DNA of 64,000 bases from the human T2T-CHM13v2.0 reference genome, Homo sapiens, in assembly GCF_009914755.1 (NCBI RefSeq), contig NC_060947.1. One strand, 5' to 3'. Below the pieces are notes generated by a model. It did no database searches. It was not told the DNA's origin and saw nothing but the letters and a program-made list of their open reading frames with translations. The translations under genes and the position numbers were made by a program. This document shows, piece after piece, positions 9,145 through 16,529 of this stretch (positions are counted from its first letter, which is position 1; the number at the start of each line of letters is the position of its first letter).

Positions 9145-9757
9145 CTGAAATCAATACAAAATGAGGGTAAACTTGACTATCCATTTTTTTTTTAAACTAG
9201 TGTATTCAGCCATTCGTGCAATGCTTGGTCCAATCACTAGTGACTATGCTCAAGCTCTATTTTCAGAACCAATTATATGACTTCACACCCTGAACTTTTT
9301 TTCTGAAATCTTCCCAATGTTATGAAGAAATTGTGACAATTTCTCACAACTGACCTCAATATATATTTTACGATAAGTCTTTGTGGCATCAGAGCATACT
9401 AACTGAGAAACCCAATTCAATTAAGAATGCCACTGGGAAAAGAAACTGAATGAAAATAGGTTAAGGTTCTTTCAAAACACTATTATAAAAATGTTAAGAT
9501 CTCTGACATCATCAGAAAGAGTTAAATTGGAAAAATCAGCCTAAGATTTCAAATGCTAATTAAGTAGTGGCAAATGAAAATTTCTTGGCTAGAAGACTTC
9601 ACAGACCTAGGCAAACACAACAGCAACACAGTTCAACAGAAAACCCAGGAGGATCATGCTAACCTCATGATGCAATGCTGCCCCCAAGAGTTCTGTCAAT
9701 TACTTACAAAATAAAACCTAAAATCTAAGACATGTGGAAAATATCATCAAGAGAGAA

Positions 9758-12700
9758 AGGGCTGCTCTGTCAATGGAGCAGCTATTCTTTATGTCCTTAC
9801 TTTCCTAATAAACTTGCTTTCACTTTACTCTATGGACTCACCCTGAATTCTTTCTTGAGCAAGATCCAAGAACCCTCTCTTGGGGTCTGGATTGGGACCC
9901 GTTTCTGGTAACATCTTTCTAGCGACCACAGAAGGGACAATACTGAGTACGTGGTGGGGTCCAGTAACATTTTTCTTTTTTTTTTTTTTTTTTTTTTTTT
10001 GAGACAGAGTCTTGCTCTTGTCACCCTGCCTGGAGTGCAGTGGCGCGATCTCGGCCCTCTCCAACCTCCACCTCCCGGGTTCCAGCAATTCTCCTGCCTC
10101 AGCCTCCCGAGTAGCTGGGATTACAAGCACACGCCACCACGCCCAGCTAATGTTTTGTATTTTAGTAGAGATGGGGTTTCACCATGTTACCCAGGCTGGC
10201 CTCGAACTCCTGAGCTCAGGCAATAAGACCGCCTCAGCCTCCCAAAGTGCTGGGATTACAGGCGTGAGCCACCATGCCCAGCCTCCAGTAACATCTTTCT
10301 AGTGAAACACGGAAAGAACAATACTGAAGAGACCCCAGACCCAAAGGAAAATCATCTGTGTGCACCAATTGGCTGACTTTGGGTAAATGGGGTGCATATA
10401 CCCAGGTAAAGGATGGGATTGGGTTAGAGGCCCAACTTAGAGTCTCTCCTAAAACAGAGAGAGTTAAAGGCTCCTCTCAATAAAAGGCAAGGATGCTTGA
10501 ATGACCTTGGGTTGGAGGCACAACTTAGGAAGGTTAGAGTCCTTCCTAAGGTTTAGGGGGTTAGAGGCCTCTCTCAGTAAAGTCCCTCTCTGCTAAGAAT
10601 AGGTTTGGCACTATGGGATGTTAATTGCTATTCTCTTTGGATTATTCTGCCTTGCACTCTTTGCTGATAGCTATGGGTGACAGAACTAGGCATGCACAGG
10701 ACCATGGGACATGGGGAGCTTTTTCCTCCTCAAAAGGGGAAACTTGAGAGTTGATGAGACTCCTGGAAAAGATCCCTTCACGACCGACAAGCGGCCACCT
10801 GAACTTTTCAGTGTCACTGCAATGGGTGCGTCTTTCTCTGGCCTCCCTGAGCTCTTTGCCTTCCCCAAAATGCTGCGGGCAATGCTTTTCTCCCTTTATC
10901 TCCTTTCCTTTTCGTATCTTTTCTGTTACTCAAGGCGACCATCTTGCCCAGAGACAAGTTGAAACTCCTGGTCAGAGGTTGGATTAATGATGATGGGGCC
11001 CAACCAGGGGCAAGTTTGAGCCTTGCCAGTAAGATATTGGGTGCTAGGCAGAGTGGCTAATGTCTATGTTTTGTCACACATATTTTGCTCTGGCCAGAAC
11101 AGGAAAAGATAATTTTCCTTTGTGTTACAGCTTGGCCCCCAGGGCTGTGGTGCAGCCAGCCGGGTCACTAGGGCTGCTCAAGGAAAGGGAACCCAGAAGC
11201 CTAGCATACCGACAAAAGGGTAAGAATTTCTTACCAGTCAGACTTCTGGCCTCTCTCTCTCTCTGTGCAAATTGGTTGAATGAATGGTAAAAATCACTGT
11301 CTCCTGTGTAAAGTTTTGATTAATGGTAAAAAGGATTTGTGAGGCTACTCTTTTTTTTTTTTTTTTTTTTTTTGAGACGGAGTCTCGCTCTGTCGCCCAG
11401 GCTGGAGTGCAGTGGCGGGATCTCGGCTCACTGCAAGCTCCGCCTCCCGGGTTCATGCCATTCTCCTGCCTCAGCCTCCCAAGTAGCTGGGACTACAGGC
11501 GCCCGCCACCACGCCGGGCTAATTTTTTGTATTTTTAGTAGAGACGGGGTTTCACCGTTTTAGCCGGGATGGTCTCGATCTCCTGACCTCGTGATCCGCC
11601 CGCCTCGGCCTCCCAAAGTGCTGGGATTACAGGCGTGAGCCACCGCGCCCGGCCGAGGCTACTCTTAAGCTACAGTGAATCTGGTGTGCTTTGTGTGTCT
11701 TTCTGTATTGTTCTGTCATAATGAGGGGTCTTAGGATAGAATGTGGGCCTAGGACCCCTGTAAGCCTGCTGTTCAAGCCACCCCAGCAAACTGGTCAATA
11801 ACAAACTTTGCTGTAGGTCCCTGAAGAAAAACTAGATAAGGGTTCCCTCTCATCTTGTTTCATGTCCTTGGGAGCTTGACCTTGCAACCATGTGGCAGTA
11901 CTTTCTCTTGGTCTCCATCATCACAATGGTGACCTGGGTTCAGGGTTCAATTCCTAGTTTAGGGGATAAGCCTTTCTGATTGATATTTGGGTGCTTACAA
12001 CTACTGGATCTTCTTTCTGTCTGTGCATTTATATGTGTTGTGTGTGTGATGTTAAAAAAAAAAAGCTTTAATTGGTTTAAAAATAGTAAAGCTTAAATCA
12101 AGTATTGTGTAAGAAAAGTAAAAATTGTAATGACTTTTAGTTCACATAACTTTAGTAATCTTTGGGTAATAAAAACAGCTTTAAAGATTATTGGGAAAAT
12201 AAAGACATTTGGTCTAAATTAGGCAGGTCAGATATTAGGTTTTCTCAATGCTTTAAGGTCATAAACTGCTTTGACTCTTGAAAATTGTTCAATTTACCTA
12301 CTTTGGAGCATTAGATTCTAGGTAAGGCTTGGGGACAAGTTGAAAGCCATGCCCCCTAGCTATGCTGGAAAAGGTCAGACCTTATCTAGTGTCCTAGGCT
12401 CCATACCTAGTACGTAATTAAAATTGCTTACTAACCAGGTTTTTCACCAAAAGTAAAAGTTCCTAAGAGTTAACAGTGTAATCTGTAATTGAGACTACTG
12501 AAGAAACAGTTTTACATGCAAGTTGCATAAGGAAAGTGAAATGTGTTTTTAGTAAAAGATTATAAGAAGGCATGAAAATGTGGATTTTTTTTTTTTTTTT
12601 GCCTAGATTAAAAGGTTAAAGGATTGTTTTTTGCTGTTTTGTTTTTGTCTTCAGACGAAGTTTCACTCTTGTTGCCCAGGCTGGAGTGCAATGGTGCAAT

Positions 12701-15700: not shown

Positions 15701-16466
15701 TTTACTGTTGTGGAATATATTGCTATTGTACTCTTTGTGTAGGAATGCAGAATAAGCTTACTCAATGTTTTCTTAAACTAAACATTTATTAATCTTCCAG
15801 ATATCACCTTTTGTTGGAACTCAGAGTTATGAATGGCCCTCGCCATCTGACGCTTTCTGACTGACCTCTTCTCTACCCCAAATACAAGAGACTCTAATAG
15901 GGAGGAATGTCATTGCCCCTATTCAACACGAAGAAGTTACAGAAGATGGAGCTTTGTCCCTCTGCAACCCTTAGTATTAAGAGTTCTCCTATAAAAGGGA
16001 GAGGGGAAATATTGAACCACAGCAACTCCATCTTGAATAGGGGCTGGGTAGAATAAGGCTGAGACCTACTGGACTGCATTCCCAGATAGTTAGGCATTCT
16101 AAGTCACAGGATGAGATAGGAGGTCAGCAAAAGATACAGGTCATAAAGACTTTGCTGATAAAACAGGTTGCAGTAAAGAAGCCAGCTAAAAGCCACCAAA
16201 ACCAAGATGGCAATGAGAGTGACCTCTGGTCATCCTCACTGCTACACTCCCACCAGTGCCATGACAGTTTACAAATGCCATGGCAACATCAGGAAGTTAC
16301 CCTATAAGGTCTAAAAGGGGGAGGCACGTATAATTCATCCCTTCTTTAGCATATAACCAAGAAATAACCATAAAAGGGGCAACCAGCAGCCCTCAGGGCT
16401 GCTCTGCTTGTGGAGTAGCCATTCTTTAATTCCTTTACTTTCCTAATAAACTTGCTTTCACTTTTT
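9758..16466 (+). mobile_element. MER41A-type ERV1 (MER4 group) element: partial 5' LTR (R-U5, 9758-9913), non-coding internal region with Alu insertions, partial 3' LTR (U3-R, ~16010-16466)
   Basis: The repeat gggctgctctg...ttcctaataaacttgctttcacttt occurs at both ends. U5 ends ...ggtaaca; polypurine tract aaagggagaggggaaa ~15994-16009; U3 tgaacc-c-agcaactccatcttgaataggggctggg matches MER41A. Confidence 0.88.
11353..11654 (-). mobile_element. Young AluYa5/Ya4-type element with a perfect 12-bp TSD
   Basis: Diagnostic CCATCCCGGCTAAAACGG, CTACTTGGG and GAGATCCCGCC on the minus strand; TSD GAGGCTACTCTT at 11341-11352 and 11655-11666. Confidence 0.9.
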
Positions 16467-16529
16467 AAAAAGAGAGAGAAAAAAAAAGCTGTCATTCTTG
16501 TACTTTAACTTTGCATATGTAAGATTCAT

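What the first reader, a model, noticed from the sequence alone, without database searches (positions are those of the whole stretch)
9750..16490. MER41 endogenous retrovirus shaped like an mRNA: probably retroposed by L1 rather than integrated as a provirus
Seen: the 5' LTR has no U3. It starts at agggctgctctg (9758), which in the 3' LTR copy (16395) lies about 26 nt downstream of a TATA-like CATAAAA (16369-16375), i.e. at the predicted transcription start. The 3' LTR has no U5. It stops ~15 nt after AATAAA (16445-16450) and is followed by an A-rich tract. AGAGAGAAA flanks both ends (9750-9758 and 16473-16481). Known: R-U5-internal-U3-R-polyA with a longer TSD is the signature of L1-mobilised processed ERVs, best described for HERV-W, whereas integrase gives two full LTRs and a 4-bp TSD for ERV1. 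Inference: a full-length MER41 genomic RNA was copied by target-primed reverse transcription. If so, this is a fossil record of the MER41A start and polyA sites. It makes up most of CTPS2 intron 10.
Basis: partly seen in the sequence, partly recalled or inferred. Interest (0 to 1): 0.8.

Follow-up and report, generated by a model that had tools for sequence, protein, structure and literature searches.

The report
MER41 retrovirus RNA copied by L1
This 6.7-kb stretch in a CTPS2 intron is a DNA copy of a full-length MER41 endogenous-retrovirus transcript, pasted in by the LINE-1 machinery rather than by a viral integrase; it is one of hundreds of such MER41 copies, a behaviour that reviews ascribe to HERV-W alone.

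Summary
The element (window 9758-16472, + strand, antisense to CTPS2) has the layout R-U5-PBS-internal-PPT-U3-R-short A tail and is flanked by AGAGAGAAA on both sides. In 29 of 29 other genomic LTR copies examined, U3-R-U5 is contiguous, so U3 is missing at the 5' end and U5 at the 3' end. The internal part is colinear with two proviruses that have two full LTRs and perfect 4-bp duplications, so the source was an unspliced RNA.

The structure recurs. Seven of 29 other 5' ends start within a few bases of the same nucleotide without U3, and 7 of 34 other 3' ends stop at the same CACTTT followed by an A tail. The two truncations are coupled: 7 of 7 U3-less copies end in poly(A), and 7 of 7 full-LTR copies keep U5. 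All eight internal-bearing processed copies carry 8-15 bp A-initiated duplications, above mismatched controls.

Genome-wide, 359 R ends run into poly(A), against 2 for each of two control patterns, and 1735 continue into U5. About 60% of a sample of 38 are roughly 70-nt "R-only" retrocopies that run from the transcription start to the poly(A) site.

I found no report of this for MER41. Reviews call HERV-W the sole HERV group mobilised by L1.

The parts
9750..9758 (+). 5' target-site duplication AGAGAGAAA. The last A may instead be the first base of R.
   Evidence: Exact 9-mer repeated at 16473-16481.
9758..9826 (+). 5' R. It begins at AGGGCTGCTCTG, the transcription start, and contains AATAAA at 9807-9812. 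No U3 lies upstream.
   Evidence: Aligns to 16395-16464 (61 of 70). Upstream flank 9400-9757 is single-copy in the genome. Other U3-less and R-only copies start within a few nt of this base, most often at +3, GGCTG.
9827..9915 (+). U5, ending in ...GGTAACA.
   Evidence: Contiguous with R in 29 of 29 other LTR copies. Absent from the 3' LTR of this element.
9916..9974 (+). Primer-binding-site region (TCTTTC TAGCGACCACAGAAGGGA). It is repeated after the Alu at about 10286-10345.
   Evidence: Sequence read. The likeness to the tRNA-Arg 3' end is recalled, not tested. Repeated PBS-like units are also seen in other copies.
9975..10285 (-). Alu insertion in the leader, added after the element inserted.
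   Evidence: Poly-T start and Alu body. Used as the query for the other Alus.
10286..16009 (+). MER41 internal region. It is non-coding as it stands and is colinear with two-LTR proviruses. Five further Alus interrupt it.
   Evidence: Colinear BLAST blocks against proviruses C3:55011933-55017271 and C2:147666698-147671677. 906 first-look candidates for the leader in the genome. Pfam gave 0 families in 3 frames.
11348..11654 (-). Alu insertion.
12627..12923 (-). Alu insertion.
13027..13327 (+). Alu insertion.
13460..13757 (+). Alu insertion.
15252..15549 (+). Alu insertion.
15993..16009 (+). Polypurine tract AAAAGGGAGAGGGGAAA, directly before U3.
   Evidence: Sequence read. The same tract lies before the LTR in another copy (L064).
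16010..16394 (+). U3 of the 3' LTR, complete except for about 10 nt at its 5' tip. It contains the MER41 motif at 16334-16359 and the TATA-like CATAAAA at 16369-16375.
   Evidence: Aligns from 16012 to the 5' LTRs of two proviruses. The LTR tip was compared. The published MER41B motif M2 matches 22 of 26. TATA coordinates.
16395..16465 (+). 3' R, with AATAAA at 16445-16450. It stops at CACTTT, the poly(A) site. No U5 follows.
   Evidence: The same stop followed by an A run is found at 359 genomic sites, against 2 for each of two control patterns.
16466..16472 (+). Remnant of the poly(A) tail (TTAAAAA).
   Evidence: Tails of 7-8 A are seen in the other full-length processed copies.
16473..16481 (+). 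3' target-site duplication AGAGAGAAA, followed by the A-rich target flank.
   Evidence: Downstream flank 16482-16830 is single-copy.

Best explanation
The element is an L1-made retrocopy (a processed pseudogene) of a full-length, unspliced, polyadenylated MER41 transcript. The steps are as follows.

1. A source MER41 provirus was transcribed from the start site in its 5' LTR, at (A)GGGCTG, 26-28 nt after the ATAAAA box. The transcript was cleaved and polyadenylated about 15 nt after AATAAA in the 3' LTR. This gives an RNA of the form R-U5-PBS-internal-PPT-U3-R-An.
2. L1 ORF2p nicked an A-rich site in what is now CTPS2 intron 10, primed on the A tail and copied the RNA to its 5' end. Staggered second-strand cleavage produced the AGAGAGAAA duplication.
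3. The copy arrived without a 5' promoter, in antisense orientation to the gene, and later received six Alu insertions.

Shown here: the anatomy, its recurrence and coupling in other copies, the long A-initiated duplications, and the contrast with the 4-bp duplications of proviral copies.

Inferred: that L1 was the enzyme (from the duplication, tail and target signature), and the date of insertion.

The copy is one case of a family-wide process. That process also produced 5'-truncated U3-R-An copies and many R-only copies of about 70 nt.
For: (1) Anatomy.

(2) A full LTR is U3-R-U5 in 29 of 29 other LTR copies.

(3) The internal region is colinear with two proviruses that have two full LTRs. 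Those proviruses have exact 4-bp duplications, TCAT and TGTT.

(4) Of 29 other 5' ends:
- 7 lack U3 and start at the same point (L032, L037, L042, L045, L047, L050, L051);
- 1 is a 5'-truncated processed copy (L054);
- 18 have full LTRs;
- 2 have a different U3 type;
- 1 is unclear.

(5) Forty other 3' ends were fetched and 34 could be evaluated. Seven stop at CACTTT followed by an A tail and 27 continue through U5.

(6) Coupling. All 7 U3-less copies with a known 3' end, the window included, end in poly(A). All 7 copies with a full 5' LTR and a known 3' end keep U5.

(7) The duplications of the 8 internal-bearing processed copies score 8-15. Examples are AAGATTTTTAGACAT, AAAG[G/T]GAAAATA and AATGGTATT[T/C]GCTG. 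The 56 mismatched flank pairs used as controls have a median of 4 and a maximum of 8.

(8) Genome pattern counts, all at up to 3 mismatches:
- R end followed by an A run: 359 sites, against 2 for the reversed control;
- an internal R position followed by an A run: 2 sites;
- R continuing into U5: 1735 sites.

(9) Both flanks of the window copy are unique in the genome, so it is not a segmental duplicate of another copy.
Against: - The duplication of this particular copy is short (9 bp) and low-complexity (purines only).
- The A tail between R and the duplication is only 5 A, preceded by TT.
- The inferred nick site reads TC/AAGAG rather than the canonical TT/AAAA.
- No orthologous empty site could be examined.
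- The samples of 5' and 3' ends are the best-scoring matches to this very copy, so the fractions (about 20-28% processed) may not hold for the whole family.
- One U3-less copy (L042) has no identified 3' end.
- Two copies first scored as U3-less turned out, or probably are, proviruses with a different U3 (L049 shown, L048 probable). BLAST absence alone can therefore mislead.
Confidence: 0.92

Rival explanations
1. An ordinary integrase-made provirus that later lost the U3 of its 5' LTR and the U5 of its 3' LTR through two independent deletions. On this view the A-rich tract and the AGAGAGAAA repeat are coincidental.
For: The element is old and heavily damaged, with six Alu insertions, so deletions are plausible in principle. 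The duplication is low-complexity.
Against: Both break points fall exactly on the transcription start and the poly(A) site. The same two break points recur in independent copies and are always coupled: 7 of 7 U3-less copies end in poly(A) and 7 of 7 full-LTR copies keep U5. Proviral relatives have 4-bp duplications, and no 4-bp duplication frames this copy.
Confidence: 0.02
2. A retrocopy of the same RNA made by a reverse transcriptase other than L1 ORF2p, for example the helper retrovirus's own enzyme with non-integrase insertion at a DNA break.
For: Nothing in the sequence identifies the enzyme directly. This copy's nick site is not the canonical TT/AAAA.
Against: Duplications of 8-17 bp that begin with A runs directly after an A tail are the L1 target-primed signature. 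They are seen in all 8 internal-bearing processed copies. Ten of 23 R-only copies score above the 95th percentile of 506 mismatched controls. Break-repair insertions would not give regular duplications.
Confidence: 0.04
3. A DNA-level copy (segmental duplication) of another processed MER41 locus, not an independent retroposition at this site.
For: One pair of polyadenylated copies on contig 19 (L109 and L110) does share flanks, so such duplicates exist.
Against: 358 nt upstream and 349 nt downstream of this copy each match only themselves in the genome. The duplication sits directly at the element's ends.
Confidence: 0.01

Closest known systems
HERV-W (LTR17/HERV17) processed pseudogenes made by L1 (Pavlicek 2002 and Costas 2002, as summarised in PMC5016936 and PMC5537654; passages read)
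   Same: The layout R-U5 ... U3-R-poly(A), duplications longer than the integrase's 4 bp, 5'-truncated members, and a large share of the family. MER41-int is placed in the same HERVW9 supergroup (PMC5753468 Table 4 and PMC4724089).
   Different: It is a different ERV group and LTR. The internal part shows no recognisable gag, pol or env. This copy's target site is not canonical TT/AAAA. MER41 additionally has many R-only copies of about 70 nt. I do not know of these for HERV-W (recalled, not searched specifically). The processed share here is about 20-28% of sampled internal-bearing copies, against more than 2/3 reported for HERV-W (PMC5537654).
L1-retrotransposed HERV-K(HML-2) rec mRNA loci at 2q32.1 and 5q15 (PMC4351823, passage read)
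   Same: [quoted passage not shown]
   Different: Those are two sporadic copies of a spliced subgenomic mRNA. The window copy is unspliced and full length, and it belongs to a class with hundreds of members.
Cellular processed pseudogenes and retrocopies
   Same: The same inferred mechanism (target-primed reverse transcription of a polyadenylated Pol II transcript) and the same hallmarks.
   Different: The template is a retroviral genomic RNA, so the copy mimics a provirus and is annotated as one.
SINE-R / the SVA 3' module (HERV-K-derived U3-R end mobilised by L1).
   Same: An LTR-derived 3' end with its own poly(A) signal spread by L1, comparable to the U3-R-An and R-only MER41 copies.
   Different: SVA is a composite, still-active family. 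The MER41 copies are plain, old transcript fossils.

Membership tests
L1-processed ERV pseudogene (criteria given for HERV-W in PMC5016936) | The 5' LTR is R-U5 only and starts at the transcription start. | tested here: met
   Homology starts at 9758/9759, there is no U3 upstream, and the upstream flank is unique.
L1-processed ERV pseudogene (criteria given for HERV-W in PMC5016936) | The 3' LTR is U3-R only and ends at the poly(A) site. | tested here: met
   It stops at CACTTT (16465), 15 nt after AATAAA, and no U5 follows.
L1-processed ERV pseudogene (criteria given for HERV-W in PMC5016936) | A poly(A) tail follows R. | tested here: met
   There is only a short remnant (TTAAAAA) before the duplication, within a 21-nt A/G tract. 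Sister copies have tails of 7-8 A.
L1-processed ERV pseudogene (criteria given for HERV-W in PMC5016936) | A target-site duplication of about 5-15 bp. | tested here: met
   9 bp exact, AGAGAGAAA. Low complexity.
L1-processed ERV pseudogene (criteria given for HERV-W in PMC5016936) | The TT/AAAA insertion motif. | tested here: inconclusive
   The site reads ...ATC/AAGAGAGAAA. The duplication starts with purines, but TT does not precede it. Sister copies mostly start with runs of 2-5 A.
L1-processed ERV pseudogene (criteria given for HERV-W in PMC5016936) | Colinear with the viral RNA. | tested here: met
   Colinear with two two-LTR proviruses apart from Alu insertions.
L1-processed ERV pseudogene (criteria given for HERV-W in PMC5016936) | An empty orthologous site holds one copy of the duplicated sequence. 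| not testable with these tools
   No primate genomes are held. The flanks have no paralogue.
MER41 (LTR) / MER41-int | LTR sequence likeness to MER41. | tested here: met
   The published 26-nt piece of the MER41B consensus (motif M2, PMC2897888 Table 1) matches 22 of 26 at 16334-16359. It is present in 28 of 29 nearest LTR copies, 7 of them perfectly.
MER41 (LTR) / MER41-int | Subfamily MER41A by alignment to Dfam or Repbase. | not testable with these tools
   No Dfam was available. The only result is that the tandem GAS sites of MER41B are absent. TTCNNNGAA lies upstream of M2 in 1 of 28 relatives and not in the window.
MER41 (LTR) / MER41-int | Gammaretrovirus-type 4-bp duplication and TG...CA ends in proviral members. 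| tested here: met
   Two proviral relatives have TCAT/TCAT and TGTT/TGTT, and their LTRs run TG...CA.
Integrase-made provirus | Two complete LTRs (U3-R-U5) framed by a 4-bp duplication. | tested here: not met

The most novel reading that the evidence does not exclude
MER41 is a second HERV group that L1 mobilised on a large scale. At least 359 genomic MER41 R ends run straight into poly(A).

In a sample of 38 of these, about 60% are 'R-only' mini-retrocopies of about 70 nt plus a tail. They begin at the LTR's transcription start, end at its poly(A) site, and are flanked by duplications that reach 9-15 bp and start with A runs where they are clear.

They would be DNA fossils of very short transcripts that start and are polyadenylated within a single LTR, either a solo LTR or a 5' LTR with promoter-proximal polyadenylation. 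That would make them an LTR-derived, SINE-like class of L1 passengers that maps the MER41 promoter and poly(A) site at nucleotide resolution.

This contradicts the statement that HERV-W is the sole HERV group mobilised by L1. The probability given covers both that the pattern is real (which I rate about 0.9) and that it is not already described in sources I could not search.
Probability: 0.5. Interest if true: 0.72.

Novelty: new member of a known kind. Interest (0 to 1): 0.62.

Why it matters
1. Annotation. Copies like this are labelled as MER41 proviruses or LTR fragments. They arrived without a 5' promoter and by a different route, so LTR-divergence dating and counts of 'proviruses' and 'solo LTRs' for MER41 are off.

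2. Biology of L1. Reviews state that HERV-W alone among HERV groups was mobilised by L1 (PMC5537654, abstract and introduction). A second, related group with hundreds of copies makes testable the question of why some ERV RNAs are good L1 templates.

3. Regulation. MER41 LTRs are studied as interferon-inducible enhancers and promoters. The retrocopies pin the LTR's transcription start (GGCTG, 26-28 nt after ATAAAA) and its cleavage site (after CACTTT) without any expression data.

4. R-only copies suggest that single LTRs once produced abundant transcripts of about 70 nt that were polyadenylated.

For the CTPS2 locus itself the insertion looks inert. It is antisense, intronic and decayed.

Tried and rejected
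The same search on a two-LTR relative also gave 0 families. No gag, pol or env remnant could therefore be used to orient or classify the internal part. I read it as a non-coding, non-autonomous ERV.
- A paralogous empty site was sought by searching both flanks in the genome. Only self-matches came back.
- Pavlicek 2002 (PMC155283) is not held. Its criteria are cited second-hand from PMC5016936 and PMC5537654. Whether it mentions other families is unknown to me.
I then worked from coordinates and small fetches.
- The exact-substring duplication test was noisy and was replaced by a scored test.
- The automatic anchor for start positions failed or mis-anchored in 7 of 32 copies. Those seven were read by eye.
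- L049 and L048 were first counted as U3-less. L049 has a different U3 matching its own 3' LTR, and it keeps U5. L048 shows a diverged U3 end. Both were removed from the count.
- The 3' end of L042 was not reached in the stretch fetched.
- Two apparent 'Alu-R chimeras' (L117, L131) are better read as antisense Alus inserted into R. This was shown for L117 and not checked for L131.
- The template-jump model for R-only copies (L1 RT switching from the 3' R to the 5' R of one genomic RNA) was considered and ranked below short transcripts. It was not tested.
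Full report
**Observation**

The window is human chrX and the element lies on the + strand, antisense to CTPS2. Reading both ends and aligning them shows that the two LTR pieces share only about 70 nt: 9758-9826 against 16395-16464, 61 of 70 identical.

The 5' piece continues for about 89 nt to ...GGTAACA (9915). 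A primer-binding-site-like TAGCGACCACAGAAGGGA follows. Its likeness to tRNA-Arg is recalled, not tested.

The 3' piece is preceded by a polypurine tract (15993-16009) and about 385 nt of U3. It ends at CACTTT (16465), followed by TTAAAAAGAGAGAGAAAAAAAAAG.

The 9-mer occurs 9 times on the + strand of the window, so its presence right after the tail has a chance probability of about 0.003. It is low-complexity, so I do not lean on it alone.

**What a complete LTR looks like**

The window's own genome can be searched. The U3-R piece has 3976 first-look candidates. In 29 of 29 other best copies fetched, the U3-R query and the R-U5 query align contiguously. The family LTR is therefore U3 (about 395 nt), R (about 70 nt) and U5 (about 89 nt). 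This element lacks U3 at its 5' end and U5 at its 3' end.

The family is MER41. A 26-nt piece of the MER41B consensus published by Schmid and Bucher (PMC2897888, Table 1) matches 22 of 26 at 16334-16359. It is found in 28 of 29 of the nearest LTR copies. The interferon (GAS) motif that marks MER41B is absent in the window and present in only 1 of 28 relatives, so this is not the B type. The 'A' label could not be verified without Dfam.

**The internal part**

Six Alus sit inside the element. Apart from them, the whole internal region is colinear with two relatives that carry two complete LTRs (C3:55011933-55017271 and C2:147666698-147671677). The template was therefore a full-length, unspliced RNA.

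Those two proviruses are framed by perfect 4-bp duplications, TCAT and TGTT, and their LTRs run TG...CA. That is the integrase signature. It is absent here.

Neither the window copy nor one of these proviruses has any Pfam-detectable retroviral domain (0 families, with X at stops). The internal sequence therefore looks like that of a non-coding, non-autonomous ERV.

**Recurrence at 5' ends**

The leader (10286-11340) has 906 first-look candidates. Forty were scored and 30 loci were returned, the window's own among them, leaving 29 other 5' ends. They break down as follows:

| Class | Count | Copies |
|---|---|---|
| Full U3-R-U5 | 18 | |
| R-U5 with no U3 in about 0.9-1.3 kb upstream, starting within a few nt of the window's start | 7 | L032, L037, L042, L045, L047, L050, L051 |
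| 5'-truncated at the end of U5 | 1 | L054 |
| A different U3 type | 2 | L049 (shown), L048 (probable) |
| Unclear | 1 | L052 |

I first miscounted L048 and L049 as U3-less. One search corrected this.

**Recurrence at 3' ends**

I fetched small stretches around 40 other 3' ends, using the coordinates:

| Outcome | Count | Copies |
|---|---|---|
| Evaluable: continues through U5 | 27 | |
| Evaluable: stops at CACTTT (plus or minus 1) followed by an A-rich tail | 7 | L050, L065, L066, L074, L079, L088, L091 |
| Not evaluable: no match to R | 3 | |
| Not evaluable: interrupted by Alus | 3 | |

**Coupling and duplications**

For the U3-less copies I located the other end. All 7 with a known 3' end (window, L032, L037, L045, L047, L050, L051) end in poly(A). 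The 3' end of L042 was not reached. All 7 copies with a full 5' LTR and a known 3' end (L034, L038, L043, L044, L049, L056, L059) keep U5. Independent deletions would not give this all-or-none pairing.

A scored search for duplications between the 5' flank and the sequence after the tail gave scores of 8-15 for all 8 internal-bearing processed copies. The 56 mismatched flank pairs used as controls had a median of 4 and a maximum of 8.

| Copy | Duplication |
|---|---|
| Window | AGAGAGAAA |
| L037 | AAGATTTTTAGACAT |
| L045 | AATGGTATT[T/C]GCTG |
| L047 | AAAG[G/T]GAAAATA |
| L032 | AAATTATT |
| L051 | about 16 bp with CpG-type mismatches |
| L054 | ATAATAAG |
| L050 | TATTGTA |

Five of the eight begin with two or more A; the window's begins AG, L050's TA and L054's AT. 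An A-rich start directly after the tail is what L1 target-primed reverse transcription leaves. The window's own site (TC/AAGAG) is purine-rich but not canonical.

**Genome-wide counts**

All patterns allowed up to 3 mismatches.

| Pattern | Matches | Reversed-pattern control |
|---|---|---|
| Last 20 nt of R, then N, then six A | 359 | 2 |
| An internal R position, then N, then six A | 2 | 2 |
| Same 20 nt continuing into U5 | 1735 | 0 |

At this stringency, about one in six MER41-type R ends is polyadenylated. The tool says counts of repeats are lower bounds.

**An unexpected class**

I fetched 38 polyadenylated ends that were new to me. They were taken in listing order from the best-matching 0-1 mismatch rows, so the sample favours well-preserved copies.

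| Class | Count |
|---|---|
| R only: starts at the same (A)GGGCTG / GGCTG as the U3-less full-length copies and ends at CACTTT plus tail, about 70 nt in all | 24 |
| Carries U3: a 5'-truncated or internal-bearing copy of a long RNA | 12 |
| Truncated inside R | 1 |
| Undetermined | 1 |

Many R-only copies have clear duplications:
- L100: AAAAAGATAAATCA
- L105: AAAATGAGATAATA
- L120: AAAGTTAAC
- L121: AAAAGAAAATTACAG
- L125: AAAGAAATATCAGAG
- L137: TCAGTGGTAAAG
- L119: AAAGTAAAGG

In an automated test of 23 of the 24, leaving out the Alu-interrupted L117, 10 scored above the 95th percentile of 506 mismatched controls (Mann-Whitney p = 0.003).

Start positions were measured for 32 copies and 25 gave a valid anchor. 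Among those 25, the leftmost LTR-matching base has its mode at +3 (11 copies) and a range of -4 to +7, counting the A of AGGGCTG as +1. Five full-LTR controls match through -14, the limit of the ruler.

Random 5' truncation of long RNAs cannot pile up at the U3/R border, so these are copies of RNAs that began there. The likeliest source is short transcripts that start and are polyadenylated within one LTR, either a solo LTR or a 5' LTR with promoter-proximal polyadenylation. A reverse-transcriptase jump from the 3' R to the 5' R of a genomic RNA is a less likely alternative that I did not test.

**Mechanism for the window copy**

A MER41 provirus was transcribed from its start site and the RNA was polyadenylated at the R end of its 3' LTR. 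L1 ORF2p nicked an A-rich site in CTPS2 intron 10, primed on the tail and copied the RNA to its cap. This produced the 9-bp duplication. It would be 10-12 bp if one GA unit slipped.

The anatomy, the recurrence, the coupling and the duplication statistics are shown. The identity of the enzyme and the date are inferred. Frith 2025 (PMC11905727, passages read) places the entry of all MER41 subtypes in a simian ancestor, so the event is no older than that. Both flanks are unique in the genome, so this is an independent insertion and not a segmental duplicate.

**Literature**

Six full-text searches and passages from nine papers turned up no description of L1-processed MER41 copies.
[quoted passage not shown] - Two sporadic L1 copies of HERV-K(HML-2) rec mRNA are known (PMC4351823).
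- Pavlicek 2002 is not held.

Subscription papers and the Repbase and Dfam notes could not be searched, so prior knowledge cannot be excluded.

**Verdict**

The copy itself is a new member of a known kind, an L1-processed ERV pseudogene, but from MER41. The wider result makes the finding more interesting than a single fossil. MER41 RNAs were L1 passengers hundreds of times, and they include a class of R-only copies that marks the LTR's start and poly(A) sites.

Noticed in passing
genome loci L100, L105-L108, L113-L119, L120-L137: About 70-nt 'R-only' MER41 retrocopies. They run from the transcription start to the poly(A) site, carry an A tail and are flanked by 9-15 bp duplications. They make up 24 of 38 sampled polyadenylated R ends.
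   Followed up: partly
window 9975-10285, 11348-11654, 12627-12923 (- strand); 13027-13327, 13460-13757, 15252-15549 (+ strand): Six Alu insertions lie inside the 6.7-kb element and make up about 1.85 kb of it. Their subfamilies were not determined.
   Followed up: partly
window 9905-9974 and 10286-10345: The PBS/leader unit (GTAACATCTTTCTAG.GA..AC...GAA.G.ACAATACTGA) is present twice, split by the first Alu. Two to three such units are also seen in other copies, so it is a family feature and not a local duplication.
   Followed up: partly
window 16010-16013: The first roughly 10 nt of U3 (TGYCAGARGCAT in proviral relatives) are missing from the window's 3' LTR. This is a small deletion at the PPT/U3 border.
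   Followed up: partly
window 10286-16009; loci L034, L140: There is no Pfam-detectable gag, pro, pol or env in this copy or in a two-LTR relative. This MER41 internal sequence looks non-coding, which implies a helper virus for the proviral copies.
   Followed up: partly
loci L109 (C19:22.06 Mb) and L110 (C19:23.06 Mb): Two polyadenylated U3-R copies share their flanking sequence. This points to a segmental duplication after insertion, so genome-wide counts include a few non-independent sites.
   Followed up: no
locus L119 (C1:202.86 Mb): An R-only copy is inserted into the R of an older, oppositely oriented MER41 LTR, with the duplication AAAGTAAAGG.
   Followed up: no
table (C3:20390461, C7:104365285, C7:145644841, C23:118442242, C23:118543548): Five leader matches all begin at query position 286-292 (window about 10571). 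This is a shared break point that could mark a structural variant, a recombinant with another ERV, or a splice or truncation hotspot.
   Followed up: no
loci L049 / L146 (C4:140.79 Mb): A MER41-int provirus whose LTRs share R and U5 with this family but have a different promoter-proximal U3, so it belongs to another LTR subtype on the same internal sequence.
   Followed up: partly
loci L064 / L093 (C7:140.319 Mb): An LTR cut short in U5 is followed directly by the 3' end of an internal region and then another LTR. This is a tandem or rearranged MER41 arrangement.
   Followed up: no
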